Source: an uncultured Alphaproteobacteria bacterium (GTDB lineage: Bacteria > Pseudomonadota > Alphaproteobacteria > HIMB59 > GCA-002718135). Taken from it: a DNA stretch of 64,000 nt. Under the pieces are notes generated by a model, which searched no databases, was not told the DNA's origin, and saw only the letters and a program-made list of their open reading frames with translations. The position numbers were made by a program, and so were the translations under genes. Shown piece by piece: positions 17,881 to 53,869 of the stretch (position 1 is the stretch's first letter; every line of letters begins with the position of its first letter). The stretch lies in NCBI GenBank assembly GCA_902595805.1, contig CACJRM010000001.1, positions 99,806-163,805 on the forward strand, given 5' to 3'.

Positions 17881-17881
17881 T

Positions 17882-18502: not shown

Positions 18503-18556
18503 GATTGACCCACCTTATTTAATATGATTAATGAAGTACAGTATTAAATAGTAATA

Positions 18557-20992: not shown

Positions 20993-20993
20993 T

Positions 20994-22693: not shown

Positions 22694-22716
22694 ATTAATT
22701 TATTACAATAAATAAA

Positions 22717-24345: not shown

Positions 24346-24389
24346 TATATTTGAAAAATACTTATTATTTAAATTAATTCATTTTAATT

Positions 24390-25223: not shown

Positions 25224-25261
25224 ATATTTATTTTTTACACTTGCCGTTTTATAGAGTTCAT

Positions 25262-25933
25262 ATGGTAGGTTTTGTTGGTTTACAAGCAAGAAGAAGAAGA
25301 AGAAATAGAATTTTACTAGTTATTTCTATTATAGCTATCTTTGGTATTTTTTTCTATTTCCCTTCTTTAGATTTATCAAATGATCAAACTAAGCCACCTA
25401 TTGAAATAATTCCTAGCAGCATTGTTGATGAATCAAGTTTACGATCTGAAATAGAAGAACTTAAACTTGAGATATTCCAAAAAGATCAGCGATTAAAATT
25501 TAGAGATGATCAAATAAAAAACTTACGTGAAGAAATAGGTGATTTAAATAAGTCATTCGATACAATTAAGAATGATTATGAACAATCTCTTAACAATATA
25601 TCAGATCTAGAAAATAACACATTAGAAAATAACTCAGAAAGTATTGAAAAACTTAACAAACTTGAAAATCAAATATCTGAATTAAATAAACAATTGTCAA
25701 AATATGAAGATCTTGTTAAAAAATTAAAAATAGAATTAGAAAGTTCTGTATCAAATGAAGATATGGAAGACGTAAAAATTGAAAATTCAATACTTAAATC
25801 AGAACTTAGACAAATTGAACAAAAAAATCGTAGTTTTGAAAATGAATTAAATGAGCTAAAAAAAATAATTAAAAATAAAGATAAAGAAATAGAAGATTTA
25901 ATTTATTTAAAAGATTCCCAACATCATGGTTGA
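25262..25933 (+). CDS. membrane-anchored coiled-coil protein, function unknown
   Basis: I prefer ATG 25262 to the TTG at 25241. It has an RRRRR stretch plus one TM segment, then about 170 aa of heptad-rich E/K/L/N sequence. Confidence 0.5.
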   Translation: MVGFVGLQARRRRRNRILLVISIIAIFGIFFYFPSLDLSNDQTKPPIEIIPSSIVDESSLRSEIEELKLEIFQKDQRLKFRDDQIKNLREEIGDLNKSFDTIKNDYEQSLNNISDLENNTLENNSESIEKLNKLENQISELNKQLSKYEDLVKKLKIELESSVSNEDMEDVKIENSILKSELRQIEQKNRSFENELNELKKIIKNKDKEIEDLIYLKDSQHHG

Positions 25934-26413
25934 TTATTCATTTTTCTTTCTGAATAAATAGGGCTCTTCAAAATCCCCAATCCATATACCTTTTTTATTT
26001 TGTTTTGCTTCTTCTTCTTCTTCAATATAATCCGTTGAATAATAGCGATAAGCTATTGCCCATCCATTCAGAACCATTGCACTATTTAAATCTAAATTAT
26101 CTTTGTAACAGATTCCAATAAATCTATTATATCGATCTTTACCTTTTGTGATGCATTCAATATTATTATTACCAATTAATTCCTTTAAGAACTTTGTTGA
26201 CTCCACACCACAATTCCAGACCTTACTATTTTTATTACATGTTTGATTTGTCTCCGGGGCATCAATAGCATGCAGTCTTATTTTATTTTTATTTATATGT
26301 ATAGTATCACCATCAATTACTTTTGCTTTTCCAAATATAGTTTTGCCAGATGATACTGTACTAAAAGAAATTAAGATAAAAAATAAATTAAATATTAAGA
26401 TTTTTACTACCAT
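25934..26413 (-). CDS. secreted thermonuclease (staphylococcal nuclease, SNase-like)
   Basis: Signal peptide followed by VIDGDTI..IRLHAIDAPE..RY.R..G pattern. Confidence 0.8.
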   Translation of the reverse strand: MVVKILIFNLFFILISFSTVSSGKTIFGKAKVIDGDTIHINKNKIRLHAIDAPETNQTCNKNSKVWNCGVESTKFLKELIGNNNIECITKGKDRYNRFIGICYKDNLDLNSAMVLNGWAIAYRYYSTDYIEEEEEAKQNKKGIWIGDFEEPYLFRKKNE

Positions 26414-26963
26414 CTACTAATAAATCATAAACATATTTTGCATGTGATCTGTTTAAATGTATATCTAATGAAGTTTCTTCTTTATCAGTATTATTTCTAA
26501 TAAAAAGTACTGGAATTTTTATAAATATAGTTTGAGCTACAGAAAAATTAGTTTCCAAGATTTTTTCTAAGTTCGCGACTAGAAATTTAGAAAGTAAAAT
26601 AAATACCTTTTCCCCTTCAAGCCGTAAAACAGTTTTATTAAATGAAACATCAGTTATTGCTGTTTTTTTTGGATTAAGTTTAGATTCTAATAGAGAAATA
26701 ATTTCATCTTTCTCATTTTCTGGTGTTTCGACTAACCATTCATTAGGACCAAGCCACATAATACTAATATTATTATTAAAAATTCTTACATTTGGCTCAA
26801 TTGGTAAAACCAGGTTTAATACTGACCCTATATTTTTCATAAATTCTTTATCTGAACTTTTACCTCTTATATTTATTTTACCTGATAGAGCTTTTTCTTC
26901 TATTGTTACTCCATTGTAATTTTTTTTATTTATATTCAAAACATTACTGTAAGTTAAACTCAT
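26388..26963 (-). CDS. soxG: sarcosine oxidase gamma subunit
   Basis: Size and position after soxA, with a 4-nt overlap. Sequence conservation is weak, as is usual for SoxG. Confidence 0.8.
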   Translation of the reverse strand: MSLTYSNVLNINKKNYNGVTIEEKALSGKINIRGKSSDKEFMKNIGSVLNLVLPIEPNVRIFNNNISIMWLGPNEWLVETPENEKDEIISLLESKLNPKKTAITDVSFNKTVLRLEGEKVFILLSKFLVANLEKILETNFSVAQTIFIKIPVLFIRNNTDKEETSLDIHLNRSHAKYVYDLLVDGSKNLNI

Positions 26964-29950
26964 TGATTAACCCTTTGATTCTCAGGATCAATAAATATTG
27001 GGCTAGTTATTTCTACTTCAATATTTTCATTTTCCATTGGGGCAATTAAAAAACTTCCTTTTTTTTCAAGACCACCTTTGATTAAAGCTAAAGCAAAAGA
27101 GCTTTTTAAATTAGGTGAATAGTAACTAGAGGTCACGTGACCAACCATTTTCATAGGTAGGGCAGTTATTTCTTCAACCAATTGAGATCCTTCTTCAAGA
27201 ACCTTATTTGGATCTTTAGTTCTTAATCCAACTAATTGTTTCCTATCTTTTTTAATAGTATCACTTCTATATAATGCCCTTTTACCAATAAAATCATATT
27301 TTTTCTTACTAACTATCCAGTCCATATCCAGATCTACTGGCGTCACTGATCCATCTGTTTCTTGTCCAACAATAATAAATCCTTTTTCAGCACGAAGTAC
27401 ATGCATCGCTTCAGTACCATATGGCGTAATATTAAATTCCTTACCTTTATCTATACAAAGTTTCCAAAGATTTTTAGCATAGCCAGATGGCACATTTATT
27501 TCATAACACATTTCCCCAGTAAAACTTATACGCATGACTCTACATTTTATTCCGTTAATATTAATATTCTTAAAACTCATATGAGGAAAATTTTCTTTTG
27601 AAAAATCAAAATCTGGAACTAGTTTTTGCATTAGTTTTTTCGAATTTGGGCCATTTAAGCTTATCGTTCCATAATTTTCTGTTACGGATGTTAAATATAC
27701 TTCTAACTCTGGCCATTCTGTTTGCAACCAATCTTCTAATTTTGACATTACTGATGCTGCATTTCCTGTAGTTGTTGACATAAGATAGTGATACTCATCT
27801 AATCTAGTTGTTACACCATCATCAATAACCATTCCATCGTCACCTAACATTACACCATATCGACATTTTCCAATTTCTAATTTTGACCATGAATTTGTGT
27901 AAACTCTATTTAAAAATTCACTTACATCTCTACCCTTAATATCTATTTTACCAAGAGTTGATGCATCTAATATTCCTAGACTATCTCTAGTTGCTTTTAC
28001 CTCTCTATTTAAAGCAGATTGAAAACTTTCATTCTTTTGAGGATAATACCAGGCTCTTTTCCATTGGCCTACGTCCTCAAATAAAGCTTTATTATCAATA
28101 TGCCATTGATGCATTGGGCTTGTTCTCTCTAAATCAAAAAATTCTTTAACATGACGCCCAGCAATTGCTCCAAATGTTACTGGTTTATAGGGTAAACGAA
28201 ATGTTGTTGTACCTAATTCAGAAATCTCAGTATTTGTTAATTCTGATATTATTCCAAGTGCATTAACATTACTGGTTTTGCCTTGATCAGTTGCCATTCC
28301 TGTAGTTGTATATCGTTTGACATGTTCAATGGATTGAAAACCCTCTTTTAAAGCTAGTTTAATATCTTTTGCTGTTACATCGTTTTGAAAATCTACAAAC
28401 ATTTTTGTTCTTGAGATACTGTTCTTTGATGTAATCCAAACATTTTCGTGTTTGCCATATTTTACATTATCTGATTTGTAATTTACTTCACCAAGTTCAT
28501 TTTGCTGATTATCATTTAAATATTTATATGTATCTTCTTCAGTATTTATTAATATTTCATTTAAATTATAGTCACCATTGCAACTGCCAACACACAATGT
28601 ATCTTGATAAACTTCATTAGGAATAAAACTTCCATCTACATCTCTAAATTTGAGTTTTCCTTTTGATTGAGTAAATAAATGAACAGTAGGAGTCCAACCA
28701 CCAGCAATTGCTAAAAGATCGCATTTAATATTAATAGAAGATTTTTCATTATTGTTTTCAGTTTTTATTTTTCTTAATTTAACTTCTCTAATTTTTAATC
28801 TTCCAACAGTATCACTAATTTCATAACCTTTTAGTATAGTAATACCTAATTTATTTGCTTTTTTAGGGTAATATCCATCACTACTATCTCTTGTATCGAC
28901 AATAGCCTCTACTTTTATACCTTGTTCAAAAAAATCTATTGCAGTTTCATAGGCACTATCGTTGTTTGTAAAAAAAACTAAATTTTTTCCAGGTGCAACT
29001 CCATACTTATTTAAGTATTTTTTCGCACTGTTAGAAAGCATAATACCAGGCCTATCATTATTGTTAAAAATTATTGGTCTTTCTATTGTGCCTGTTGCTA
29101 AAATAACTTTCTTTGATCTAATTTTCCAAATTCTTTCTTTAATATCGTTTTTTTTATATAATCCTTTTTCTGGATCAATTTCTTGGACAGCTAATAATAA
29201 ATTATAATTTAAATAAGCAAAACAAGTTGTATTTTTTACTATTTTTATATTTGAATTTTTAGAAAGTTTATCAACGATTTTATTTTTCCATTCATTAATT
29301 GGCAAGTTATCTATTTTAATATCTTGATTCCTGGTAGATAAAATTTCACCTCCGAGATCGTCTTCTTGCTCAATAAGTAATACTTTATAATTATTATTCG
29401 CTGCAATTTCTGCTGAAATTAATCCACTCACTCCTGCTCCAACAACTAGAACATCACAATGATAATGAAAATGTTCGTATTTGTGGGGATCATCTTTTTT
29501 TGGAGATTTACCAAGTCCTGCAGCATGTCTTATAAAAAACTCATATGCCTTCCAAAACTTTGGTGGCCACATAAAGGTCTTGTAATAGAACCCTGCAGGA
29601 AAAAATGGTGATAGTAAATCATTTATAGCACCTGCATCAAATTTCACTGACGGCCAATTATTTTGACTAAAAGCTTTTAACCCCTCATATATCTGGACTT
29701 CAGTCGCTCTTCTATTAGGTTCGGTATATTCTTTAGTCTCAAGCTGAACTATTCCATTAGGTTCTTCACTACCTGCGGTATAAATACCCCGGGGTCGATG
29801 ATATTTAAAACTTCTTCCTACCAAGTGAACATCATTTGCAAGAAGTGCTGAAGCTAAGGTGTCACCTTCAAATCCAAAATATTCTTTATTATCAAAATAA
29901 AATCTAATAGATTTATTATTTTCGAGATTTTTATTATTTTTGTATCGCAT
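26960..29950 (-). CDS. soxA: sarcosine oxidase alpha subunit
   Basis: 996 aa with an N-terminal 2Fe-2S-like/NAD fold (VLVVGAGVSG) and a C-terminal GcvT-like folate domain. Confidence 0.95.
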   Translation of the reverse strand: MRYKNNKNLENNKSIRFYFDNKEYFGFEGDTLASALLANDVHLVGRSFKYHRPRGIYTAGSEEPNGIVQLETKEYTEPNRRATEVQIYEGLKAFSQNNWPSVKFDAGAINDLLSPFFPAGFYYKTFMWPPKFWKAYEFFIRHAAGLGKSPKKDDPHKYEHFHYHCDVLVVGAGVSGLISAEIAANNNYKVLLIEQEDDLGGEILSTRNQDIKIDNLPINEWKNKIVDKLSKNSNIKIVKNTTCFAYLNYNLLLAVQEIDPEKGLYKKNDIKERIWKIRSKKVILATGTIERPIIFNNNDRPGIMLSNSAKKYLNKYGVAPGKNLVFFTNNDSAYETAIDFFEQGIKVEAIVDTRDSSDGYYPKKANKLGITILKGYEISDTVGRLKIREVKLRKIKTENNNEKSSINIKCDLLAIAGGWTPTVHLFTQSKGKLKFRDVDGSFIPNEVYQDTLCVGSCNGDYNLNEILINTEEDTYKYLNDNQQNELGEVNYKSDNVKYGKHENVWITSKNSISRTKMFVDFQNDVTAKDIKLALKEGFQSIEHVKRYTTTGMATDQGKTSNVNALGIISELTNTEISELGTTTFRLPYKPVTFGAIAGRHVKEFFDLERTSPMHQWHIDNKALFEDVGQWKRAWYYPQKNESFQSALNREVKATRDSLGILDASTLGKIDIKGRDVSEFLNRVYTNSWSKLEIGKCRYGVMLGDDGMVIDDGVTTRLDEYHYLMSTTTGNAASVMSKLEDWLQTEWPELEVYLTSVTENYGTISLNGPNSKKLMQKLVPDFDFSKENFPHMSFKNININGIKCRVMRISFTGEMCYEINVPSGYAKNLWKLCIDKGKEFNITPYGTEAMHVLRAEKGFIIVGQETDGSVTPVDLDMDWIVSKKKYDFIGKRALYRSDTIKKDRKQLVGLRTKDPNKVLEEGSQLVEEITALPMKMVGHVTSSYYSPNLKSSFALALIKGGLEKKGSFLIAPMENENIEVEITSPIFIDPENQRVNQ

Positions 29951-29958
29951 CTTTATTT

Positions 29959-30315
29959 TTAAAATCTATCTTTTTTTGATGTTGATAAATTCCCTGATCC
30001 AATACTTGGCTCACCTGAAGGAGTAGCTGGAATATTTGCTTTTAATTTAGGAGGAGCTTCTCCCATCTTATATACTGCTAGAATTTCATCGGTTGATGTA
30101 TTTCTTGCTAAATTAAACCATTGTCTGCATCCATATTCATGGTTCCATCTTTCATAATGAATACCTTTTTCGTTCTTTCGCAAGAATAAATATTCTGCCC
30201 ATTGATCATCAGAGAGTTCAGGAGGATTTTTTGGTCTTGCAATATGAGCCTCACCTCCACAAGAAAATTCAGCTTGATCTCTTTCTCCACAGTATGGGCA
30301 ATTTATTAAAAACAT
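29959..30315 (-). CDS. soxD: sarcosine oxidase delta subunit
   Basis: Begins MFLINCPYCGERDQAEFSCGGEAH, the zinc-ribbon motif typical of SoxD. Confidence 0.9.
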   Translation of the reverse strand: MFLINCPYCGERDQAEFSCGGEAHIARPKNPPELSDDQWAEYLFLRKNEKGIHYERWNHEYGCRQWFNLARNTSTDEILAVYKMGEAPPKLKANIPATPSGEPSIGSGNLSTSKKDRF

Positions 30316-30318
30316 GAT

Positions 30319-31578
30319 TTAATGTGCTACGGCAGCTGCACCATGTTCATCAACTAATTCACCGCTAGAAAATCTATTTATTGTAAAAGGAGCATTTAAT
30401 TCATGGGCTTGATCATTAGCTATAGTGTGAGCAAATACCCAACCAGAACCTGGTGTTGCTTTGAAACCACCTGTTCCCCAACCACAATTAAAATATAGTC
30501 CGTTTATGTGAGTTTTACTGATAATGGGGCTTGCATCAGGACATATATCTACAATTCCTCCCCAATGACGAAGCATTTTCATTCTAGAAAATATTGGAAA
30601 CAATTCAACGATCGCCATTAAAGTATCTTCAACAATGTTAAAGCCACCTCTTTGAGTATATGATGTATATCCATCTGTTCCAGCACCAATAACTAATTCT
30701 CCTTTATCTGATTGAGATACATACGCATGAATTGTATTGGACATTACTACAGTATCAATAACTGGTTTTACCGGTTCTGAAACTAGAGCTTGCAATGGCT
30801 TACTCTCTAAAGGTAATTTAATTCCAGCCATATTGGCAATAACACTTGTATGACCTGCAGCAGCTATTCCAATTTTATTTGATTCAATAGTTCCTTTTGT
30901 TGTTTCAATACCAGTTACATTTCCATTTTTTACATTAATACCAGTAACTTCACAATTTTGAATTATATCAACCCCCATTTCATCAGCTCCTCTTGCATAA
31001 CCCCATGCAACAGCATCATGTCTTGCAGTTCCTGCTCTTCTTTGTAGTGTTGCTCCTAAAACAGGATATCTAATGTTTGGTGAAGTATTTATTATTGGAC
31101 AAAATTCTTTAACTTTCTTTGTATCAAGCCATTCACAATCAATATCATTCAGTCTGTTTGCATGCCAACGTCTTTTTAATTCTCTTACATCATGAAGATT
31201 ATGAGCAACATTCAAAACTCCTCTTTGAGAAAACATTACGTTGTAATTTAATTCTTGAGACATACCTTCCCAAAGTTTTAATGCATGCTCGTATAAAGCT
31301 GCACTTTGATCCCACAAATAGTTTGATCTAATTATAGTGGTATTTCGCCCTGTATTCCCTCCACCTATCCAACCTTTTTCAATTACTGCAATATTATTAA
31401 TTCCATGGTTTTTTGCTAAATAGTAAGCAGTAGTTAAACCGTGTCCACCACCACCGACTATTATTGCATCATAACTTTTTTTTGGTTCAGGACTATTCCA
31501 AGTCTTTTGCCAATTCTCATGATGATTTAAAGCGTTTCTAGCAATAGAAAGAAATGAGTATTTATTATTATTAAACAT
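30319..31578 (-). CDS. soxB: sarcosine oxidase beta subunit
   Basis: [12 protein letters not shown] fold, full length at 419 aa. Confidence 0.95.
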
Positions 31579-31598
31579 TATAACTCTTTATAGCAGTT

Positions 31599-33272
31599 TT
31601 AAAAAAGACCTTCAATTTCTCCGTGGTCATTGAGCTTTATCGAATTTGCCGCAGGAACACTTGGTAGGCCCGGCATGGTCATAATATCACCGCAAACAAC
31701 TACTATAAATTCTGCTCCTGATGACAATCTTACCTCTCTAATAGGTAAAACGTGGCCAGTAGGGGCACCTTTTAAATTAGGGTCAGTTGAAAAACTATAT
31801 TGAGTCTTTGCAATGCAAACAGGTAATTTGCCAAATCCTTTAGTTTCAAAATCCTTCAATTGTTGACGTACTTTCGTGTCTGCCACAACTTCACTTGCGT
31901 GATAAATCTCTTGTGCAATTTTTTCTATTTTTTTGAATAGAGTTAAATTATCTTCATATAAAAATTTAAATGTATTCTTATTATCTTCACAAATATCTAT
32001 TACATTTTGAGCTAATTCAGTTGCACCATCACCACCATCGGACCAGTGAGTACACATGGAAGCCTTGACTCCTTGAGTTGTACAAAAACTTAGAACGGCA
32101 TCAACTTCAGCTTTAGAATCAGTGACAAAATGATTAATAGCAACAGTTACTGGTAATCCAAATTTCCTAACATTATTAATATGTCTCTCTAGATTTACTA
32201 AACCTTTTTTAAGAGCATTTACATTTTCATTTTTTAAATCTTCTTTTGAAACATCGCCATGCATTTTTAATGCTCTTATTGTAGCTACCAAAACCACACA
32301 ATCAGGTTTTAAATTTGATTTTCTACATTTTATATCAAGGAATTTTTCTGCTCCTAGATCAGCTCCAAAGCCTGCTTCAGTTACAACGTAATCACTTAAT
32401 TTTAAACTAGCTTTAGTTGCAATTACAGAATTGCAACCATGAGCAATATTTGCAAATGGCCCACCATGAATTATAGCAGGATTATTTTCTAACGTTTGTG
32501 TTATGTTGGGCCTAATGGCATCTTTTAATAATACTGTCATTGGACCCTCTGCCTTTAAATCTTTTGCATAAATAGCTTTTTTGTCTCGTGTATAAGCAAT
32601 AGTTATATTTCCAATTCTCTCTTCAAGATCTTTTAAATCTTTTGCTAAGCAGAAAATTGCCATTATCTCCGATGCAACAGTAATATCAAAACCATCTTGT
32701 CTAGGATATCCATTCGCAACTCCTCCTAAATCAACAACAATAGATCTAAGTGATCTATCATTCATATCCATTACTCTCTTCCAAACAACCCTTCTAACAT
32801 CAATATTTAATTTATTACCCCAGTAGATATGATTATCAATTAATGCAGAAAGTAAATTATGAGCGGATGTAATTGCATGAAAATCTCCAGTAAAATGCAA
32901 ATTAATTTGCTCCATTGGTACTACTTGAGCATAGCCTCCACCAGCTGCACCACCTTTCATACCGAATGATGGTCCAAGACTCGGCTCTCTTAAACAAACT
33001 ATTGATTTCTTTCCTAGTTTATTAAGACCATCACTTAATCCAACAGAAGTTGTTGTTTTACCTTCTCCTGCTGGTGTTGGAGTTATTGCTGAGACTAGAA
33101 CAAGTTTACCATCTTTATTTTTATTAAGTGAATCTATGTACTCCAAGTTTATTTTTGCAATATGACGACCCATAGGACTGAAGGCTTCAGGTGTGTCTGG
33201 TACATCAAGCTCTTTTAGAATTTCACTAATAGGCTTCATTTTAGCTTTTCTTGCTATTTCAATATCTGACAT
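31599..33272 (-). CDS. fhs: formate--tetrahydrofolate ligase
   Basis: [12 protein letters not shown]-loop, full length at 557 aa. Confidence 0.97.
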
Positions 33273-35510: not shown

Positions 35511-36932
35511 ATGGTAGCCATTTATGGAATTCATTGGTTTAGACAAGATTTGCGATTACAAGAAAATCCATCTTTATTGTCACTTTCAAAAAAAGTTGAT
35601 CAGATAATTCCTATCTATATTTTAGATTTAAATCAAAGAATTGGATCTACATCAAAATGGTGGTTAGAAAAATCCTTAATTAGTTTATATGATTCAATAC
35701 AAAAACATAATGGCAAACTAAATATATTTGCTGGTGATCCAGAGAAAATTATATCTTCAATACTAAAGAATTCAAAAGTCAAATATGTATCCTGGAATAG
35801 ACTATATGATCCATATTCAATTAAAAGAGATACTAAAATTAAATCTATAGTTACCTCATCTAAAATAGAATGCGACTCGCACAATGGATATCTTTTAAAT
35901 GAACCTTGGAATATTAAAAATAAAAGTGGAACCTTTTTTAAAGTATTTACCCCTTACTGGCGACATTGTGATGAACTACTAAAACAAAAAGATCTTAAAT
36001 TTAAAAATACAAAAATAATCTACGCCAATTCAAAACTTAAAAATGAAATAACTATACAAGATTTAAACCTAACAAACAAAAAAGAGAAATGGATCAAAAA
36101 AATTTCAAAATATTGGATACCTGGTGAAAGTAATGCAAAATTACAATTAAAAAAATATATTTCCCAAAAAGCAAATAACTATTCAGTTGGAAGAGATAGA
36201 CCCGATAAAGATTTAACTTCAAAATTATCACCTCATCTTCATTTTGGAGAAATATCCGCTTTGGAAGTTTATGATACCGTAAATATTGAAAAAAAAATTG
36301 ATCCTGAAAATAAAAAAAAATTTCTTGCTGAACTTGGCTGGAGAGATTTTTCTTATAATCTTTTATTTCATTATCCAGATATGACTCATAAACCTATACA
36401 AAGTAAATTTAATAAATTTCCATGGATTAAAAATGCTAAAAATTTATCATTATGGCATAATGGTAAAACTGGTATTCCAATTGTTGATGCTGGAATGAGA
36501 CAACTATATAAAACAGGCTGGATGCATAATAGAGTAAGAATGATTGTAGGCTCGTTTCTAACAAAAAATTTATTGTTACACTGGAAAAATGGAGAGGAGT
36601 GGTTTTTTGATACTTTAGTTGATGCTGACGTTGGGTCTAATTCTGCAGGTTGGCAATGGATATCTGGTTGTGGTGCAGATGCAAGTCCATATTTTAGAAT
36701 TTTTAATCCAATATTACAGGGTCAAAAATATGATCCAGATGGTGATTATGTAAAAGAATTTGTTCCTGAGTTGAATAATATTCCAAAAAAATATATTCAT
36801 AATCCTTGGGAGATGTCTATGGAGGATCAAAAGAAATATAATTTTGAGATTGGTACTTCATATCCAGCACCAATTGTAGATTTAAAAGAAACAAGAAATA
36901 GAGCACTATCAGCGTTTAAAACTATTAGTTGA
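35511..36932 (+). CDS. phrB: deoxyribodipyrimidine photolyase
   Basis: WFRQDLRL N-terminus and the FAD-binding C-terminal blocks TGWMHNRVRM and WQWISGCGADASPYFRIFNP. Confidence 0.9.
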   Translation: MVAIYGIHWFRQDLRLQENPSLLSLSKKVDQIIPIYILDLNQRIGSTSKWWLEKSLISLYDSIQKHNGKLNIFAGDPEKIISSILKNSKVKYVSWNRLYDPYSIKRDTKIKSIVTSSKIECDSHNGYLLNEPWNIKNKSGTFFKVFTPYWRHCDELLKQKDLKFKNTKIIYANSKLKNEITIQDLNLTNKKEKWIKKISKYWIPGESNAKLQLKKYISQKANNYSVGRDRPDKDLTSKLSPHLHFGEISALEVYDTVNIEKKIDPENKKKFLAELGWRDFSYNLLFHYPDMTHKPIQSKFNKFPWIKNAKNLSLWHNGKTGIPIVDAGMRQLYKTGWMHNRVRMIVGSFLTKNLLLHWKNGEEWFFDTLVDADVGSNSAGWQWISGCGADASPYFRIFNPILQGQKYDPDGDYVKEFVPELNNIPKKYIHNPWEMSMEDQKKYNFEIGTSYPAPIVDLKETRNRALSAFKTIS

Positions 36933-48603: not shown

Positions 48604-49353
48604 ATGGCAGGACACTCCAAGTTTAAAAATATTATGCATCGAAAAGGTGCTCAAGATAAAAAAAGAGCAAAGGTATTTTCAAGACTTGGAAGAGAAATAT
48701 CTGTTGCAGTCAAAGTCGGTGGTGAAGATATTGAAAGTAATATTAGATTAAGATCTGCAATTGCTTCAGCCAAGTCTCTAAATATGCCAAAAGATAACAT
48801 TGAGAGAGCAATTAAAAAAGGTCAAGGGAATGACCCTGATAGTAATTATGAAGAAGTAAGATATGAGGGGTATGGACCTGAAGGTGTTGCAATAATAGTT
48901 GAGGCCCTTACAAATAATAAAAATAGAACAGCTGCAGAAATTAGATCAACTTTTAGCAAATATGGAGGTAATTTGGGTGAAACAGGTAGCGTTAGTTTTG
49001 GTTTTGATAGATTTGGAAATATCACCCTTGATAAAAACTTAGTGAAAGAAGATCAGCTTCTAGAATTTCTTATTGAAAATAATAGTGAAGATTATGAAAT
49101 TAATGACACTGAATATTCAATATACTGTGATCAAAATAATTTGCATGAACTTAATGATAAATTAATTAAACAGTATGGTCAGACTAACTCTGCAAATTTA
49201 ATCTGGAAAAGTAAAAATAATATAAATATTGGAAAAATTACAGCAGACAAACTATTTAAATTACTTGAAGTTTTAGAAGACAATGACGACGTTCAAGTTG
49301 TATCATCAAATTTTGAAGTTGATGATAATGTATTATCTTCACTCACAGCCTAA
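48604..49353 (+). CDS. yebC: YebC/PmpR family DNA-binding regulator
   Basis: Begins MAGHSKFKNIMHRKGAQDKKRAK. Full length. Confidence 0.95.
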   Translation: MAGHSKFKNIMHRKGAQDKKRAKVFSRLGREISVAVKVGGEDIESNIRLRSAIASAKSLNMPKDNIERAIKKGQGNDPDSNYEEVRYEGYGPEGVAIIVEALTNNKNRTAAEIRSTFSKYGGNLGETGSVSFGFDRFGNITLDKNLVKEDQLLEFLIENNSEDYEINDTEYSIYCDQNNLHELNDKLIKQYGQTNSANLIWKSKNNINIGKITADKLFKLLEVLEDNDDVQVVSSNFEVDDNVLSSLTA

Positions 49354-49367
49354 CGAAAGGAATATAG

Positions 49368-49661
49368 ATGCCTGATAAAGCCTGGAAAAAAAGAGAAAGA
49401 GATGTTGCAAATTATTTCAATGGGAAAAGGACACCTTTGAGCGGGGGTAATGGTAAAGTAACAAGAGCTGATGTAATTCATGAAGATTTATTCATAGAAT
49501 GTAAATTAAGAGCAAAGCATACAGCAATTAGTTTATGGGATGATACCGCAAAGCTTGCCAAAGAAGAGGGTAAGACACCAGTAATAGCATTATGTGAAAA
49601 AAATAGACCAGGTTTTTGGGTTATGGTTCATAGTAGTGATCTTGAAAAAATTAAAAAGTAA
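49368..49661 (+). CDS. small PD-(D/E)XK nuclease, Hjc/YraN-like (putative Holliday-junction resolvase analogue)
   Basis: E10, a Gly-rich loop SGGNG, D35 and E44-C-K46 (RADVIHEDLFIECK) reproduce the E..D..E-x-K arrangement and spacing of archaeal Hjc. It occupies the locus where ruvC normally follows yebC. Confidence 0.55.
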   Translation: MPDKAWKKRERDVANYFNGKRTPLSGGNGKVTRADVIHEDLFIECKLRAKHTAISLWDDTAKLAKEEGKTPVIALCEKNRPGFWVMVHSSDLEKIKK

Positions 49662-49666
49662 TTATT

Positions 49667-50380
49667 ATGTCAGATATAAATAGCACAAATTTATCTACAG
49701 AAGCTCCAGATTTTTCAATGCTTGCGTTATTTATGCAAGCTGACCTTGTAGTTAAATCTGTAATAATAATTTTAATCCTTGCCTCTCTTTATTCTTGGAA
49801 TGTAATAATTTCAAAAATTTTAAGAATTAGACAATTAAAAAAACTTGAACAAGAATTTGAAGATATTTTTTGGTCTGGAAATTCATTTGAAGATTTATAT
49901 GAAACTTTAAACTTTAATCAGACAGATCCAAAATCAAAATTATTTTGTGCTGCAATTTTAGAGTGGAAGAAAAGTAAAACTCAGTTTGAAAATGATACAT
50001 CTGATATTAATTCTTTAAAAGATAGAATGATGAGATCAATGACAGTTGTTTTCAATAAAGAAAGTGAAAATGTTGAGAGAAATTTAACATTCCTAGCAAC
50101 TGCTGGATCAACTGCACCTTTTATTGGGTTATTTGGAACAGTCTGGGGTATAATGAATAGTTTTAAATCTATCGCAATAGCTCAAAATACAAATTTAGCA
50201 GTAGTTGCACCAGGAATTGCTGAGGCCCTTTTTGCCACTGCATTAGGTCTTTTTGTGGCCATACCTGCTGTAGTTGCCTACAATAAAATTTCAAACGATT
50301 TATCAAAATATTTTATATCTTTGGAAACATTTATGGATGAATTCTCAACAATTTTTTTTAGACAATTAGAGAAAAAATAA
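49667..50380 (+). CDS. tolQ: Tol-Pal system protein TolQ
   Basis: MotA/TolQ/ExbB family (TAPFIGLFGTVWGIM). Confidence 0.9.
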   Translation: MSDINSTNLSTEAPDFSMLALFMQADLVVKSVIIILILASLYSWNVIISKILRIRQLKKLEQEFEDIFWSGNSFEDLYETLNFNQTDPKSKLFCAAILEWKKSKTQFENDTSDINSLKDRMMRSMTVVFNKESENVERNLTFLATAGSTAPFIGLFGTVWGIMNSFKSIAIAQNTNLAVVAPGIAEALFATALGLFVAIPAVVAYNKISNDLSKYFISLETFMDEFSTIFFRQLEKK

Positions 50381-50381
50381 A

Positions 50382-50810
50382 TTGATTACCTCAAATAATT
50401 TAAACAAACGAAAGAAGCAAAGGTACACTCAAATGAGTGAAATTAATGTTACACCTTTTGTGGATGTTATGCTTGTTTTACTAATTGTTTTTATGGTTAC
50501 TGCACCTCTCCTAACGGTTGGAATTAAAGTTGATTTACCAAAGGTTAAAGCTACTGCATTAACTGATATTAAAGATCCAATTGAGATAACCGTTAAGTTA
50601 GACGGAGAAGTCTACATTGCAGAATCAAAGGTTGAAGTAGAAAATTTAATTCCTCGACTAAACGCTATTACTGAACAAAACACAGAAGCAAGAATTTATA
50701 TACGAGGTGATAGAGTAGTAGCTTATGGAAGGATTATGGAAATTATGTCCATAATAAATTCAGCAGGATATATTAAAGTTGCATTAATTACTCAAAATCT
50801 TGAGCAATAA
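50382..50810 (+). CDS. tolR: Tol-Pal system protein TolR
   Basis: ExbD/TolR motif SEINVTPFVDVMLVLLIVFMV. TTG start. Confidence 0.9.
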   Translation: MITSNNLNKRKKQRYTQMSEINVTPFVDVMLVLLIVFMVTAPLLTVGIKVDLPKVKATALTDIKDPIEITVKLDGEVYIAESKVEVENLIPRLNAITEQNTEARIYIRGDRVVAYGRIMEIMSIINSAGYIKVALITQNLEQ

Positions 50811-51881
50811 ATGGATCGTATAAGCTATAATAGTTTAAAAATAATAAACTTTTTTGAAAATTTAAATCCTAAAACATCAGGAGTTATTTTTTCAACATTA
50901 ATACATTTAATTATCCTTTTGTTTATGGTTGGCTTACCAAATTTTTTTTCTCCTAAAGAAATCTACGTTCCAAATGTAATACCTATTGAAATACTTAATG
51001 TTGATGAAAATACAAATTTGAAAAAATCTGATACTAAAAAACCAGAAAATAAAAATAAGGAAACAATTACTAAGCAAAAAAAATTTAATTCATCTGATCA
51101 ATTAGAAGTAAAAAAAAATGTTGAAATAAATAAAACTGAAATTGAAGAAAAAACTAATCCAAATCAACCAGTTTTGGAAATGAAACAAACTCCAAATTTA
51201 GAAGTTAAGGAAACAAAAAAAGTAATTATCAAAGAGAAGGAAATTTTAGAGGTTAAGAAAAAAATAGAAACAATTAAAACTGATATAATTAAACCAAAAC
51301 TTAAACCAAAGCCAAAAAATATAAATAATGAAAATGTTAAATCAGATTTAGACGTTGAAACAAACATAAAGGATAAACCAAAGTTGGAAAGTGATAAAGC
51401 CGTATCTAAACCAAAGCCGAAACCTGAAAAAGATTTTAGCATAGCCTCAATGCTTAAAGATTTAAGAAATGAAAAAACAAATATGGTTCAAAATGAGGTT
51501 AAAGAAGAGGTTGAAGAAGTTGATAATAAAAGTACAGATGATACTGATGACAATGTAATGCTATCAATATCTGAAATAGACATGTTGAGGCAACAATTAT
51601 CTTCTTGTTGGAATGCACCAGCAGGTGCAGTTATAGAAAGAGGAGATAAAGTAACAATTTCAGCAAAAGTACTACAAAATATGAAGGTTTCTCCAAATAG
51701 TATCCGCATTGTTGACACAAATATAACTAAAACTAATCCATTTTATGGACCAATTACAGATAGCGCAATGAGAACACTTTTAAATCCAGAATGTACACCG
51801 TTAAAACTTCCAAAAGATAAATATAATCTATGGAAAAATCTTACAATTACCTTTGATTATAGTATTATGAAGGGATATTGA
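50811..51881 (+). CDS. tolA: TolA-like protein
   Basis: N-terminal TM segment, a long K/E/P-rich linker and a C-terminal globular domain. Its position lies between tolR and tolB. Confidence 0.7.
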   Translation: MDRISYNSLKIINFFENLNPKTSGVIFSTLIHLIILLFMVGLPNFFSPKEIYVPNVIPIEILNVDENTNLKKSDTKKPENKNKETITKQKKFNSSDQLEVKKNVEINKTEIEEKTNPNQPVLEMKQTPNLEVKETKKVIIKEKEILEVKKKIETIKTDIIKPKLKPKPKNINNENVKSDLDVETNIKDKPKLESDKAVSKPKPKPEKDFSIASMLKDLRNEKTNMVQNEVKEEVEEVDNKSTDDTDDNVMLSISEIDMLRQQLSSCWNAPAGAVIERGDKVTISAKVLQNMKVSPNSIRIVDTNITKTNPFYGPITDSAMRTLLNPECTPLKLPKDKYNLWKNLTITFDYSIMKGY

Positions 51882-53197
51882 TGAAAAAAGCTTTCTTAAT
51901 AACCCTTTTTTTATTTTCAAGTTTTAAAGTCCATTCATTAGAAGTGACTCTAACACAGGGTAGTGTAAAGCCAACCCCAATAGCTATAACAGAGCTATAC
52001 TCAAAAAATTCACAATTAATTAAAGTAGGTAAGAATATAGCAACTGTTATTTCAGATAACTTAGAAAGATCTGGGCTTTTTTTACCGATAGATAAAAGAT
52101 CTTTTATTCAAGATAATGAATCTTTATCAAATAAACCTAGATTTGAAGATTGGAAATTAATAAAAGCTCAACATTTAGTTTCAGGAAAAATTTCAACAAA
52201 CAATGGAAAAATATCTGTCGAATTCAGATTGTTTGATGTCTTTCAACAAAAGCAAATTGTGGGAAAAAAATATGAGACAAATGAAAAAAATTGGAGAAGA
52301 GTTGCTCATATTATTTCAGATTCCATTTTTAAAAATATAACTGGCGAAGGTGGTTACTTTGATACAAGAATAGTTTACGTTGCTGAGACTGGTCCAAAAG
52401 AAAATAAACAAAAAAGATTAGCAATAATGGATCAAGATCAATCAAATCATCGTTTTTTAACTGATGGATCATACTTGGTATTAACACCAAGATTTTCTCC
52501 TAATTCACAAAAAATTACCTACATGTCTTATGTTAATAGAAATAATCCTAGAGTGTATATATTTGATATAGAAACTGGTAAACAAGAAATAGTAGGTGAA
52601 TTTCCAGGAATGACATTTGCGCCACGTTTTTCACCTGATGGTAATCAAATCGTAATGTCTTACACTGATCCAGAAATTGGTAATTCTGAAATTTATATTC
52701 TTGATCTAAAAACAAGAATTTCAAAAAGAGTTACTAATAATTCTTCAATTGATGTTTCTGCAAGTTTTTCACCAGATGGCAAAAAAATTGTTTTTAATTC
52801 AGATAGAAGTGGAAGAAGACATTTATATGTATGTGATAATAATGGAAAAAATATCAAGAGAATTAGCAGGGAAGCAGGAAGTTACTACACACCTGTCTGG
52901 TCTCCAAGAGGTGATATGATTGCATTCACTAAACAAGAGGGAGGCCAATTTTATATAGGTGTGATGGAGGTTGATGGTTCTAATGAAAGAATGATTGCAA
53001 AATCATTCCATGTTGAGGGCCCTACATGGGCTCCGAATGGCAGATTTTTAATGTATTTTAAAGAAGAAAGAACAGCTGAAGATGGTTCAGGAGGTGAATC
53101 TAGTCTATATTCTATTGATTTAACTGGATTTAATGAAAGAAAAGTAATAACTCCCTTAGGGGGATCGGACCCAGCTTGGTCTCCTTTGATGCATTAA
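51878..53197 (+). CDS. tolB: Tol-Pal system beta-propeller protein TolB
   Basis: Repeated PRFSPDG/ASFSPDGKK/PVWSPRG propeller blades. Confidence 0.95.
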   Translation: MMKKAFLITLFLFSSFKVHSLEVTLTQGSVKPTPIAITELYSKNSQLIKVGKNIATVISDNLERSGLFLPIDKRSFIQDNESLSNKPRFEDWKLIKAQHLVSGKISTNNGKISVEFRLFDVFQQKQIVGKKYETNEKNWRRVAHIISDSIFKNITGEGGYFDTRIVYVAETGPKENKQKRLAIMDQDQSNHRFLTDGSYLVLTPRFSPNSQKITYMSYVNRNNPRVYIFDIETGKQEIVGEFPGMTFAPRFSPDGNQIVMSYTDPEIGNSEIYILDLKTRISKRVTNNSSIDVSASFSPDGKKIVFNSDRSGRRHLYVCDNNGKNIKRISREAGSYYTPVWSPRGDMIAFTKQEGGQFYIGVMEVDGSNERMIAKSFHVEGPTWAPNGRFLMYFKEERTAEDGSGGESSLYSIDLTGFNERKVITPLGGSDPAWSPLMH

Positions 53198-53297
53198 TTT
53201 AATATAATACAAAAAAATATACGAAATTTTGAAAAAAATGTTAAGGAATTCAATATAATTTAGTATATCTACTCAAAGTATTAAGGGAGCATTATTT

Positions 53298-53819
53298 ATG
53301 TTTTACAAGTTTTTTATCTCTATATTTATGGTTTTATTTGTTGCCGCTTGTGCAACAACACCAAAAGATTCAGCTGACTCTTCTGGATCAGGGTCCAGTA
53401 GTTCTGGAAGTGATGTTTCTTCAGAAGGTACTATTACCGAAACTGCAGGAAGCGGAATAGTTTCTGGATCACAAGAAGATTTAATTGTTAATGTTGGTGA
53501 TAGAGTATTTTTTGGATATGATAGTTCAGATTTAGACTCAGACGCTTTAGAGTTACTACAAGATCAAGTTGCATGGCTAAAACAGAACAGCGATGTCACA
53601 GTAACAATCGAAGGGCATTGTGACGAAAGAGGTACTAGAGAGTACAACTTAGCTCTTGGTGAAAAAAGAGCTCAGGCTGTTAAAAATTATCTAATAGGAT
53701 TAGGAATAAATCCTGACAGGGTTTCAACTATTAGTTATGGTAAAGAAAGACCTGCTGTTGTAGGATCAAATGATGGAGCATGGGCTCAAAACAGACGATC
53801 AGTAACTTTAGTTAATTAA
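53298..53819 (+). CDS. pal: peptidoglycan-associated lipoprotein Pal
   Basis: Lipobox VAAC, an S/G-rich linker and an OmpA-like domain (GHCDERGTREYNLALGEKRA..NRR). Confidence 0.9.
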   Translation: MFYKFFISIFMVLFVAACATTPKDSADSSGSGSSSSGSDVSSEGTITETAGSGIVSGSQEDLIVNVGDRVFFGYDSSDLDSDALELLQDQVAWLKQNSDVTVTIEGHCDERGTREYNLALGEKRAQAVKNYLIGLGINPDRVSTISYGKERPAVVGSNDGAWAQNRRSVTLVN

Positions 53820-53839
53820 TTATTTTTCCTTAATACTTT

Positions 53840-53869
53840 GGCGCTATAGAAATATAGCGCCATATTTTT
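53840..53869 (+). terminator. intrinsic terminator after pal
   Basis: GGCGCTATA-GAAA-TATAGCGCC (53840-53861) followed by ATATTTTTA. Confidence 0.7.

What the first reader, a model, noticed from the sequence alone, without database searches (positions are those of the whole stretch)
49368..49661. Minimal Hjc/YraN-like PD-(D/E)XK nuclease occupies the slot of ruvC-ruvA-ruvB-ybgC between yebC and tolQ
The 97-aa protein MPDKAWKKRERDVANYFNGKRTPLSGGNGKVTRADVIHEDLFIECKLR... has an early acidic residue (E10), a Gly-rich loop (SGGNG), D35 and E44-x-K46. This is the E...D...E-x-K catalytic arrangement and spacing of archaeal Holliday-junction resolvase Hjc and of the YraN family. A second half follows (..GKTPVIALCEKNRPGFWVM..) that aligns by eye with the Hjc C-terminal strands.

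Its neighbours are yebC upstream and tolQ-tolR-tolA-tolB-pal-cpoB-tilS-ftsH downstream. In many alphaproteobacteria this exact interval holds ruvC, ruvA, ruvB and ybgC. All four are missing from the locus and this single small nuclease stands in their place. That suggests non-orthologous displacement of RuvC by a minimal resolvase in a streamlined genome, and possibly branch-migration-independent resolution. I am not aware of this having been described.
Basis: partly seen in the sequence, partly recalled or inferred. Interest (0 to 1): 0.65.

Follow-up and report, generated by a model that had tools for sequence, protein, structure and literature searches.

The report
Captured phage resolvase in ruvC's slot
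An abundant ocean bacterium (HIMB59/AEGEAN-169 group) keeps a tiny, very strongly conserved DNA-cutting enzyme of the archaeal Hjc Holliday-junction-resolvase type. The gene was captured from a marine phage and sits exactly where bacteria normally keep ruvC, so it probably does ruvC's job, but whether ruvABC is truly gone from the genome could not be checked here.

Summary
Window 49368-49661(+) encodes the quoted 97-aa protein, 14 bp after yebC and 5 bp before tolQ.

It is a real Hjc-like PD-(D/E)XK nuclease:
- PHROG 2002 "Holliday junction resolvase", E 2.5e-10.
- hhalign against Hjc: probability 83%, E 9e-6, with the catalytic residues paired.
- AlphaFold pLDDT 91; the top 12 PDB fold hits are all Hjc.
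- E10, R21, S25-G26, D35, E44 and K46 are invariant or nearly so over 148 diverse relatives.

- The lineage is the HIMB59 order, not SAR11 proper.
- The family is otherwise phage or prophage-borne. Marine phages of about 38 kb carry 66-84% identical copies between the small and large terminase genes.
- The chromosomal copies form one clade nested inside phage diversity, which indicates one capture and then vertical inheritance.

The gene is fixed: 73 of 73 TolQ-baited contigs carry it. It is more conserved than TolQ or YebC (dN/dS about 0.02).

No ruvA/B/C lies in the window or in about 160 related loci. Published tables show yebC-ruvC adjacency in other alphaproteobacteria and score three SAR11 genomes as lacking RuvABC. 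The genome-wide ruv status of this lineage stayed untestable, so displacement of RuvC is likely but unproven.

Verdict: a new member of a known kind, of moderate interest.

The parts
49368..49661 (+). 97-aa Hjc-like PD-(D/E)XK nuclease gene of phage origin. The predicted protein is 11.1 kDa with pI 9.5.
   Evidence: ORF. PHROG 2002, E 2.5e-10. hhalign against Hjc, probability 83%, E 9e-6. AF2 pLDDT 91.3 and Foldseek top hits all Hjc. dN/dS 0.02. Size and pI.
49395..49397 (+). Codon for E10, the first catalytic acidic residue. It aligns with E9 of P. furiosus Hjc.
   Evidence: Kept in 146/149 representatives. Paired with Hjc E9 by hhalign.
49428..49445 (+). Codons R21 to G26 (R-T-P-L-S-G), a conserved basic/Ser-Gly loop. 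It corresponds to the R25...S-x-G region of Hjc.
   Evidence: R21, S25 and G26 are each kept in 148/149. Alignment.
49470..49472 (+). Codon for D35, a catalytic residue that aligns with Hjc D33.
   Evidence: Kept in 149/149. Alignment.
49497..49505 (+). Codons E44-C45-K46, the ExK catalytic motif on strand beta-3. It aligns with Hjc E46-x-K48.
   Evidence: E44 and K46 are kept in 149/149. Alignment. Strand 41-48 in the model.
49354..49367 (+). 14-bp spacer between yebC and the gene, holding the ribosome-binding motif AAAGGAA (49356-49362). No promoter or terminator is present.
   Evidence: Sequence. The spacing is conserved in 80 loci. Promoter and terminator scan.
48604..49353 (+). yebC (TACO1/YebC family), the usual upstream partner of ruvC.
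   Evidence: Pfam. 43% identical to E. coli YebC. The yebC-ruvC linkage is documented in PMC3403352 and visible in E. coli.
49667..53819 (+). tolQ-tolR-tolA-tolB-pal, co-directional and starting 5 bp after the nuclease gene.
   Evidence: ORFs. Pfam. Synteny holds in 80 genome loci and 73/73 metagenome contigs.
53839..53862 (+). Strong hairpin plus T-run terminator after pal. It is the first convincing + strand terminator downstream of about 46.4 kb, so the nuclease gene lies inside one long co-directional unit.

Best explanation
The gene encodes an active, Mg2+-dependent, structure-specific endonuclease of the Hjc type. By analogy with Hjc it probably works as a homodimer that binds four-way DNA junctions and makes paired nicks.

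It descends from a resolvase or debranching gene that marine podophage-like phages carry between their small and large terminase genes. There it presumably clears branched DNA before packaging.

An ancestor of the HIMB59/AEGEAN-169 order captured one copy directly downstream of yebC, the ancestral ruvC position. The captured gene most likely replaced the ruvC(-ruvA-ruvB-ybgC) block. Since then it has been inherited vertically as a core housekeeping gene, co-transcribed with yebC and tol-pal. It most likely serves as the cell's Holliday-junction resolvase after RecA-mediated recombination and fork repair.

Shown here: the fold and catalytic motif, the phage origin, fixation in the lineage, strong constraint, and the local absence of ruv genes.

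Inferred: dimerisation, junction specificity, genome-wide loss of RuvC and RuvAB, and how branch migration is provided (RecG, or none).
For: Nuclease identity:
- PHROG 2002 'Holliday junction resolvase', E 2.5e-10; 108/123 diverse relatives hit the same PHROG.
- hhalign of the family against four solved Hjc/Hje sequences gives probability 83%, E 9e-6 over 88 columns. It pairs E10/R21/D35/E44/K46 with Pfu Hjc E9/R25/D33/E46/K48.
- AF2 pLDDT 91.3, pTM 0.83, topology alpha-beta-beta-beta-alpha-beta-beta-alpha.
- With two independent models, the best PDB fold hits are all Hjc (probability 0.98-1.0, TM up to 0.61).
- Phage structure library: 18 hits at E<=1e-3, several named Holliday junction resolvase.
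- The catalytic set is invariant over 148 representatives and intact in 74/74 metagenomic alleles.

Phage origin:
- 155 viral contigs encode relatives. The 80 kept are 66-83% identical by tblastn to the window protein, and share no other window gene. Median GC is 39% against 29% for the window.
- In 78/80 the order is TerS, gene, TerL.
- All other relatives inspected are phage or prophage.
- Host copies are monophyletic (23/30 bootstraps) and nested among phage copies.

Core status:
- Identical synteny in 80 genome loci.
- Present in 73/73 TolQ-baited contigs.
- dN/dS 0.021, against tolQ 0.023 and yebC 0.091.
- Median identity 95.9%, against TolQ 86.5% and YebC 83.1%, with pS 0.62.
- No terminator or promoter separates it from its neighbours.

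RuvC slot:
- No RuvA/B/C within the window or about 160 related loci.
- yebC-ruvC adjacency and the RuvABC-YbgC-Tol neighbourhood are documented.
- Three other streamlined marine alphaproteobacteria of the SAR11 clade are scored RuvA-, RuvB-, RuvC-, RecU-.
Against: - Genome-wide absence of ruvC, ruvA and ruvB in this lineage was not tested. If they exist elsewhere, the displacement story weakens.
- No biochemical data exist for any member of this phage family. 'Holliday junction resolvase' in PHROG and IMG is an inferred label.
- Similarity to Hjc is remote: Pfam PF01870 gives no hit for this protein and a hit at 0.028 for 1 of 123 relatives; Foldseek E-values are only 5e-3 to 5e-2; hhalign probability is 83%, not above 95%.
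- The position between the terminase genes in marine phages could instead mean a packaging-accessory nuclease rather than a junction resolvase.
- The protein is about 25 residues shorter than Hjc, and dimerisation was not modelled.
Confidence: 0.6

Rival explanations
1. Redundant or accessory nuclease. The genome still has ruvABC elsewhere. This captured phage nuclease is an extra structure-specific endonuclease, comparable to RusA in E. coli K-12, used for a subset of branched substrates such as stalled forks.
For: The genome-wide ruv status is unknown. Zhang et al. report that nearly all bacteria keep RuvAB. Phage resolvases are often broad debranching enzymes.
Against: - The gene sits precisely in the ruvC position with 14-bp and 5-bp spacers and no ruv remnant.
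- It is fixed in 73/73 contigs and more conserved than TolQ and YebC. That is unusual for a redundant gene in a streamlined genome of 1.5-1.7 Mb.
- A whole ruvC-ruvA-ruvB block would have had to relocate.
Confidence: 0.2
2. A co-opted packaging or anti-phage nuclease. The phage protein is a terminase-accessory endonuclease. The host keeps it to interfere with replication or packaging of related phages, as a form of superinfection exclusion or defence, and not for recombination.
For: 78/80 marine phage homologues lie between TerS and TerL, overlapping the TerL start. The host and phage proteins differ at only four diagnostic positions.
Against: - No PADLOC defence model matches.
- The gene is not in a defence island or variable region but inside the conserved yebC-tol-pal unit.
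- Defence genes are typically patchy and fast-evolving. This one is universal, with dN/dS 0.02.
- In other phages and prophages the family sits in replication-recombination modules (integrase, AAA_24, DUF669, helicase, Prim-Pol; or DUF3799/PDDEXK_1), as expected of resolvases.
Confidence: 0.1
3. A different PD-(D/E)XK function, such as an RNA endonuclease related to tRNA-splicing endonucleases, or a YraN-like protein of unknown role.
For: tRNA-splicing endonucleases and cap-snatching nucleases follow Hjc in the Foldseek lists.
Against: - Hjc chains fill the top 12 ranks with both models.
- Splicing endonucleases lack the E-D-ExK metal site that is invariant here.
- YraN, VRR-NUC and RecU do not appear among the Pfam families listed for the window protein or for 123 relatives.
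- The phage contexts are DNA replication and packaging.
Confidence: 0.05
4. A decaying prophage remnant or selfish insertion with no host function.
For: The family is otherwise phage-borne.
Against: - No other phage gene, integrase or repeat lies nearby.
- Identical position across two families of the order.
- 79 nucleotide alleles but only 27 protein variants; dN/dS 0.02 with dS about 0.6.
- The catalytic residues are intact in 74/74 alleles.
Confidence: 0.02

Closest known systems
Archaeal Holliday junction resolvase Hjc/Hje (Pfam PF01870; PDB 1GEF, 2WCW, 1HH1, 1OB8)
   Same: Same fold and order of secondary-structure elements. Same catalytic constellation: E...(R..SG)...D...ExK. It is the best structural match in the PDB, and profile-profile alignment pairs all catalytic residues.
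   Different: About 25 residues shorter (97 against 120-143 aa). D-to-E spacing is 9 rather than 13. No HMMER-level sequence similarity. Found in bacteria and phages rather than archaea. Dimerisation and junction cleavage are untested.
PHROG 2002 'Holliday junction resolvase' / Pfam PF24608 PDDEXK_15 'Phage putative PDDEXK endonuclease'
   Same: This is the family the protein belongs to: E 2.5e-10 to PHROG 2002, and 108/123 relatives hit it. 17/123 relatives hit PF24608.
   Different: All other members inspected are in phages or prophages. This clade is a fixed chromosomal core gene in a free-living bacterial order. The window protein itself does not reach PF24608. I know of no characterised member of the family.
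RecU of Firmicutes and Mollicutes (PF03838; PDB 1RZN)
   Same: A PD-(D/E)XK resolvase that replaced RuvC in a whole bacterial lineage. It is the textbook non-orthologous displacement, and the proposed role is analogous.
   Different: A different family: the 1RZN chain has 150 residues, ranks only 36th by fold with probability 0.16, and gives no sequence hit. RecU works with RuvAB and its gene lies far from ruvAB. Here RuvAB may also be missing.
RusA (lambdoid prophage resolvase; chromosomal in some bacteria)
   Same: A phage-derived resolvase that can substitute for RuvC. RusA is the alternative resolution system (with RecG) named in PMC3403352. That it can substitute for RuvC is my own knowledge.
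   Different: An unrelated fold. The window protein has no hit to the 'RusA-like' phrog_244 at E<=1. In E. coli RusA is cryptic and accessory; here the gene is fixed, operonic and highly constrained.
Phage debranching resolvases T7 endonuclease I and T4 endonuclease VII
   Same: Phage enzymes that clear branched DNA before packaging (my knowledge). This matches the TerS-gene-TerL position of the marine phage homologues. T7 endonuclease I is also a PD-(D/E)XK enzyme.
   Different: No detectable sequence or top-ranked structural similarity. Different architecture: T7 endonuclease I is a domain-swapped dimer and T4 endonuclease VII is a zinc/HNH-type enzyme.
RuvC (RNase H-fold resolvase of the RuvABC resolvasome)
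   Same: Same genomic position (directly downstream of yebC) and the same presumed cellular role.
   Different: An unrelated fold, with no sequence similarity. RuvC acts within a RuvAB branch-migration complex.

Membership tests
Hjc (Pfam PF01870) | Sequence match to the family HMM above the gathering threshold | tested here: not met
   No Pfam hit for the window protein at E<=1. Only 1 of 123 relatives touches PF01870, at E 0.028. No phmmer or hmmsearch hit to PDB Hjc chains.
Hjc (Pfam PF01870) | Catalytic E ... D ... E-x-K set plus the conserved R/S-G loop, in Hjc order | tested here: met
   E10, R21, S25-G26, D35, E44 and K46 are invariant or nearly so. hhalign pairs them with Pfu Hjc E9, R25, S/G, D33, E46 and K48.
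Hjc (Pfam PF01870) | Hjc fold (alpha-beta-beta-beta-alpha-beta core) as the best structural match | tested here: met
   Two AF2 models (pLDDT 83 and 91). The Foldseek PDB top ranks are all Hjc, with probability 0.98-1.0 and TM 0.5-0.61, although E-values are only 5e-3 to 5e-2.
Hjc (Pfam PF01870) | Profile-profile homology | tested here: inconclusive
   hhalign probability 83%, E 9e-6 over 88 columns, but against a thin 4-sequence Hjc profile. Supportive, not decisive.
Hjc (Pfam PF01870) | Homodimer that cleaves four-way junctions with paired nicks | not testable with these tools
   Needs biochemistry or a multimer model.
PHROG 2002 (phage 'Holliday junction resolvase') | Significant full-length match to the PHROG HMM | tested here: met
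   E 2.5e-10, residues 3-94 against profile positions 16-112 of 130. 108/123 relatives match.
Pfam PF24608 PDDEXK_15 | Match to the family HMM | tested here: inconclusive
   The window protein has no hit. 17/123 homologous representatives hit it, best E 2.7e-6. It is probably the same superfamily cluster, at its edge.
RecU (PF03838) | Sequence or top structural match to RecU | tested here: not met
   RecU is not among the Pfam families listed for the protein or its relatives. 1RZN ranks 36th with probability 0.16.
YraN / UPF0102 (PF02021) and VRR-NUC (PF08774) | Match to the family HMM | tested here: not met
   No hit for the window protein at E<=1. Neither is among the 25 listed of 38 families hit by the 123 relatives. 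Neither is in the Foldseek top 50.
RuvC / RuvA / RuvB | Sequence similarity to the E. coli proteins | tested here: not met
   tblastn finds no hit at E<=1e-3 in the window or related loci (E<=1e-4 for the metagenome loci), while the YebC control hits at 2e-60.
RusA | Match to RusA-type models | tested here: not met
   The window protein has only the PHROG 2002 hit at E<=1. Weak phrog_244 'RusA-like' hits in 30/123 relatives cover the same PD-(D/E)XK region, which suggests a mislabelled PHROG.
Known anti-phage defence systems (PADLOC) | Match to any defence-protein model | tested here: not met
   0 families at E<=1.
Non-orthologous displacement of RuvC (the RecU or RusA scenario) | The organism lacks RuvC genome-wide | not testable with these tools
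No paper or supplement reports ruv content for HIMB59. Local absence only. SAR11 precedent.
Non-orthologous displacement of RuvC (the RecU or RusA scenario) | The replacement gene is fixed and under purifying selection in the lineage | tested here: met
   73/73 unbiased contigs. dN/dS 0.02. More conserved than TolQ in 58/59 loci.

The most novel reading that the evidence does not exclude
The HIMB59/AEGEAN-169 order has lost the entire RuvABC resolvasome. It relies on a single 97-aa phage-derived Hjc-type nuclease as its only Holliday-junction resolvase. That would be a minimal resolution pathway without a dedicated branch-migration motor, in one of the ocean's most abundant free-living bacterial groups, acquired by in-situ replacement of ruvC-ruvA-ruvB-ybgC with a phage packaging gene.
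Probability: 0.4. Interest if true: 0.7.

Novelty: new member of a known kind. Interest (0 to 1): 0.5.

Why it matters
Holliday-junction resolution is needed to finish recombination and to segregate chromosomes, and RuvABC is close to universal in bacteria. The known exceptions (RecU in Firmicutes, RusA from prophages) shaped the idea that resolvases are repeatedly replaced by unrelated enzymes.

This case would add three things:
- An Hjc-type enzyme, the archaeal solution, fixed in a free-living bacterium.
- A clear donor: a marine phage gene sitting between the terminase genes.
- A precise in-situ swap at the yebC-ruvC position.

It also gives the uncharacterised phage family PHROG 2002 / PF24608 (1365 representatives at 50% clustering) a tractable, very small (11 kDa), strongly conserved member for biochemistry.

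Finally, it points to an open question about streamlined ocean bacteria. SAR11 genomes are scored as lacking RuvABC and RecU although they recombine frequently. How streamlined plankton resolve junctions can now be tested directly.

Tried and rejected
- Direct sequence searches gave nothing: Pfam, NCBIfam, PDB phmmer and PDB profile.
- The tblastn search of cultured phages found only two gut phages at about 45% identity. This first suggested a distant phage link. The IMG/VR scan later showed much closer marine phages.
- I spent the single genome-contig scan on the gene's own context. That closed off any genome-wide search for ruvA, ruvB and ruvC.
- Attempts to recover that information from the literature all failed: two searches on SAR11/HIMB59 with ruv or Holliday terms, HIMB59 with 'DNA repair', HIMB59 with 'ruv', Viklund 2013, supplements of two HIMB59 papers, Grote 2012 and Pelagibacter with 'ruv'.
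- A 'putative Holliday junction resolvase' listed in the SAR11 core is probably the generic YqgF label, so I did not use it.
- The idea that the 30 hits to 'RusA-like' phrog_244 mean fusions with RusA was rejected. The hits cover the same PD-(D/E)XK region.
- The idea that other AT-rich plankton such as SAR11 proper carry a chromosomal copy found no support. AT-rich-type relatives lie on short or viral-fraction contigs, and long-contig members are a prophage or a large phage.
- Prophage remnant, defence gene and RNA nuclease readings were considered and ranked low, as set out under the rival explanations.
Full report
1. The observation

The ORF at 49368-49661 (+) exists. It starts with ATG and encodes exactly the 97-aa protein quoted. 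It lies 14 bp downstream of the yebC stop codon, with an AAAGGAA ribosome-binding motif in the spacer. It ends 5 bp before the tolQ start. Pfam confirms the neighbours: YebC/TACO1 upstream and MotA_ExbB (TolQ) downstream, preceded by a 5-formyl-THF cyclo-ligase and a YmdB gene. tolR, tolA, tolB, pal, a TPR protein, tilS and ftsH follow. The predicted protein is 11.1 kDa and basic, with pI 9.5.

2. What the protein is

Plain sequence searches are silent: Pfam, NCBIfam, PDB sequences and a PDB profile search all return nothing. The protein does match PHROG 2002, annotated 'Holliday junction resolvase', over its whole length at E 2.5e-10.

An exhaustive profile search of 1.84 billion cluster representatives finds 1365 relatives at E<=1e-3, of which 815 are at E<=1e-10. 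Across 148 of these, which are mutually <=50% identical, the following are invariant or nearly so: E10, R21, S25, G26, D35, E44 and K46.

Of 123 representatives, 108 hit PHROG 2002. Seventeen hit Pfam PF24608 (PDDEXK_15, 'Phage putative PDDEXK endonuclease'). One touches Hjc (PF01870) weakly.

I compared the family by profile-profile alignment with four solved Hjc/Hje sequences, which I recovered from PDB alignments. The result is probability 83%, E 9e-6 over 88 columns. It pairs E10, R21, D35, E44 and K46 with E9, R25, D33, E46 and K48 of P. furiosus Hjc.

AlphaFold models built from a 25-sequence alignment and then a 123-sequence alignment reach pLDDT 83 and 91. Both show the topology alpha-beta-beta-beta-alpha-beta-beta-alpha. 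With both models the top Foldseek hits in the PDB are archaeal Hjc from A. fulgidus, P. furiosus and S. tokodaii. Probabilities are 0.98-1.0 and TM-scores reach 0.61, while E-values are only 5e-3 to 5e-2. tRNA-splicing endonucleases, Cas4 and viral cap-snatching nucleases follow. RecU ranks 36th. In the viral structure library there are 18 hits at E<=1e-3, several named Holliday junction resolvase.

I conclude that this is a minimal Hjc-like PD-(D/E)XK nuclease. YraN, VRR-NUC, RecU, RusA and the known defence families are not supported.

3. Whose genome this is

Eighty species-level genomes carry the gene at 92-100% identity. Their titles include HIMB59-LRMED-199, MarineAlpha5_Bin5 and many GORG-Tropics single-cell genomes. 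The window's GC of 29.3% matches the GCA-002718135 family of the HIMB59 order (29.1%) described in PMC10734472. The organism therefore belongs to the HIMB59/AEGEAN-169 order, which current phylogenomics separates from SAR11.

4. The surprise: a phage gene

The first hint came from a Bacteroides phage protein about 45% identical and its standalone relatives of about 137 aa on contigs of 80-90 kb.

Scanning IMG/VR then found 155 viral contigs that encode relatives. The 80 kept are 66-83% identical to the window protein, and many are on contigs of 36-38 kb. These contigs share no other gene with the window. DNA similarity stops at the gene borders (about 76% nucleotide identity). Their median GC is 39%.

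Annotation of these contigs shows Cro, RepB-type primase, a DEAD helicase, small terminase, this gene, large terminase (whose start overlaps the gene's stop), portal, protease and major capsid protein. The order TerS, gene, TerL holds in 78 of 80 loci.

Every other relative whose context I inspected is also viral:
- a contig with HTH, DUF3799/PDDEXK_1 and MT-A70 genes;
- a podophage-like contig;
- an integrated prophage on a 764-kb contig, where the gene closes a module of integrase, AAA_24, DUF669, helicase and Prim-Pol;
- a 135-kb phage-like contig.

AT-rich-type relatives lie on short or viral-fraction contigs.

In a neighbour-joining tree the chromosomal copies form one clade (23 of 30 bootstraps). 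That clade is nested among the marine phage copies, and the successive outgroups are all phage-borne. Host and phage consensus sequences differ at only four positions. The simplest reading is a single phage-to-host capture followed by vertical descent.

5. Is it a working host gene?

Synteny (5-FTHF cyclo-ligase, ymdB, yebC, gene, tolQRAB, pal) is identical in all 80 genome loci. It is the same in a more divergent genome whose copy is 88% identical.

Those loci were chosen because they carry the gene, so I repeated the test with TolQ as bait on metagenome contigs. This sample spans TolQ identities of 79-99%. In 73 of 73 contigs with enough upstream sequence, the gene lies directly upstream of tolQ.

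Across 59 loci that hold all three genes:
- median identity to the window is 95.9% for this gene, 86.5% for TolQ and 83.1% for YebC;
- the gene is the more conserved in 58/59 comparisons with TolQ and 57/59 with YebC;
- the catalytic set is intact in 74 of 74 alleles;
- pN/pS is 0.06 at pS 0.62.

In the genome set there are 79 nucleotide alleles but only 27 protein variants. dN/dS is 0.021, compared with tolQ 0.023, tolR 0.030, yebC 0.091 and ymdB 0.092. The high synonymous divergence rules out a recent sweep as the cause of the conservation.

There is no + strand terminator between a promoter-like cluster near 46.4 kb and the strong hairpin after pal at 53839. So the gene is embedded in one co-directional unit. 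This is a domesticated, functionally important core gene and not a prophage remnant.

6. The ruvC slot

E. coli RuvA, RuvB and RuvC find nothing in the window, in +/-10 kb of 80 genomes, or in the 80 TolQ-baited loci. The YebC control hits at 2e-60.

The claim that this position is ruvC's place is documented:
- In E. coli, ruvC directly follows yebC.
- Zhang et al. 2012 (PMC3403352) report yebC and ruvC in one operon in about half of RuvC-containing bacteria. They list YebC, YbgC, TolB, TolQ and TolR as the top STRING partners of RuvA, RuvB and RuvC.
- Their Table S1 places ruvC 12 bp after yebC in the marine alphaproteobacterium Puniceispirillum marinum, and overlapping yebC in Midichloria.
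- The same table scores Pelagibacter ubique HTCC1062, HTCC7211 and HIMB114 as YebC+, RuvC-, RecU-, RuvA-, RuvB-. Streamlined marine alphaproteobacteria can therefore lose the whole resolvasome.

HIMB59 is not in that table. I could not establish its genome-wide ruv content. This is the main gap in the argument.

7. Most likely mechanism

By homology, the protein is a metal-dependent, structure-specific endonuclease. E10, D35 and E44 would bind the metal. K46 would act as the general base or stabiliser. R21 and the S25-G26 loop would contact DNA. Like Hjc, it probably acts as a dimer that nicks two strands of a four-way junction.

In the phages it sits where a debranching enzyme is useful, just before the terminase. 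In other phages it sits at the end of replication-recombination modules.

In the host, three things make 'cellular Holliday-junction resolvase that took over from RuvC' the best explanation, at confidence about 0.6: its position in the ruvC slot, its fixation and its extreme constraint. The nuclease identity (about 0.95) and the phage origin and domestication (about 0.9) are much firmer than the displacement claim. Whether RuvAB is also gone, and whether RecG or nothing provides branch migration, is inference.

8. Rivals

- An accessory nuclease alongside an intact ruvABC elsewhere (0.2).
- A co-opted packaging or anti-phage nuclease (0.1). Against this: no PADLOC match, a core rather than island location, and universal presence.
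- A different PD-(D/E)XK function such as RNA cleavage (0.05).
- A selfish remnant (0.02), effectively excluded by the selection data.

9. Comparison with known systems, and novelty

The enzyme works like Hjc and belongs to the phage family PHROG 2002, close to PF24608. It fails Pfam's Hjc threshold, so I file it as Hjc-like and not as an Hjc family member.

The evolutionary scenario parallels RecU, which replaced RuvC across a lineage, and RusA, a phage resolvase able to replace RuvC. It differs from them in fold family, in the precise in-situ position and in the clear phage donor.

The family is catalogued, and IMG labels one close relative (P0404, in the 90%-identity cluster of the 88%-identical P0022) 'Holliday junction resolvase'. 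The exact window protein occurs on at least 999 contigs and is called 'hypothetical protein'. I found no paper describing the capture.

I rate it a new member of a known kind, with interest 0.5. If complete genomes confirm loss of RuvABC, the interest rises to about 0.7.

Noticed in passing
L081 5323-6315 (Bacteroides phage BS162P1, OP172706.1 58549-59541): The annotated 330-aa 'DNA endonuclease I-HmuI' is a resolvase gene of this family interrupted in frame by a NUMOD4 + HNH_3 homing-endonuclease module of about 180 aa. Residues 1-29 and 211-330 match residues 1-29 and 10-129 of the standalone homologue P0122, so a 20-residue duplication flanks the insert.
   Followed up: partly
L094 8001-8300 and 8290-9705; L090-L169 in general: In 78 of 80 marine phage contigs the homologue lies between the small and large terminase genes. 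In most of these it abuts or overlaps the large terminase start (within about 30 bp). This hints at translational coupling of a debranching nuclease with packaging.
   Followed up: partly
Literature: PMC3403352, Table S1: Pelagibacter ubique HTCC1062, Pelagibacter sp. HTCC7211 and HIMB114 are scored YebC+ but RuvC-, RecU-, RuvA-, RuvB-. I saw no chromosomal member of this nuclease family outside the HIMB59 order. What resolves junctions in SAR11 proper, which recombines frequently, therefore looks open.
   Followed up: partly
L182 1553-1830 and L185 4822-5100 (metagenome contigs LUMT01002935.1, LUMB01000110.1): Two contigs carry deletions of about 140-160 bp with different breakpoints. Each removes the 3' half of the nuclease gene together with the tolQ start. 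A third allele is also truncated. Protein P0253 reads from the nuclease into TolQ. These are either assembly artefacts or rare defective alleles; I did not resolve which.
   Followed up: partly
Family representatives (alignment A2): 30 of 123 family members weakly match phrog_244, labelled 'RusA-like Holliday junction resolvase', over the same PD-(D/E)XK region. RusA has a different fold, so that PHROG label looks unreliable or the PHROG is mixed.
   Followed up: partly
window 35511-36932 (+): A DNA photolyase gene (FAD_binding_7 + DNA_photolyase). It shows that light-dependent direct repair is kept in this streamlined genome.
   Followed up: no
window 16513-33272: A cluster of one-carbon and methylamine oxidation genes: GCV_T-domain proteins (16513-17844), a DAO + GCV_T protein resembling dimethylglycine dehydrogenase (18557-20992), ETF-QO (22717-24345), a protein resembling the sarcosine oxidase alpha subunit (26960-29950, - strand) and formate-THF ligase (31599-33272, - strand).
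   Followed up: no
window 53839-53862 (+): A strong 10-bp-stem hairpin followed by a T-run lies directly after pal. It is the only convincing + strand terminator between about 46.4 kb and 54 kb, which implies a very long co-directional unit from the zapA-like gene through pal.
   Followed up: no
L062 (NHJW02000023.1): A contig titled 'Gammaproteobacteria bacterium TMED225' carries the gene at 98% identity. It is one of the 80 loci that all show the same synteny, so that MAG or contig is probably mislabelled or misbinned.
   Followed up: no
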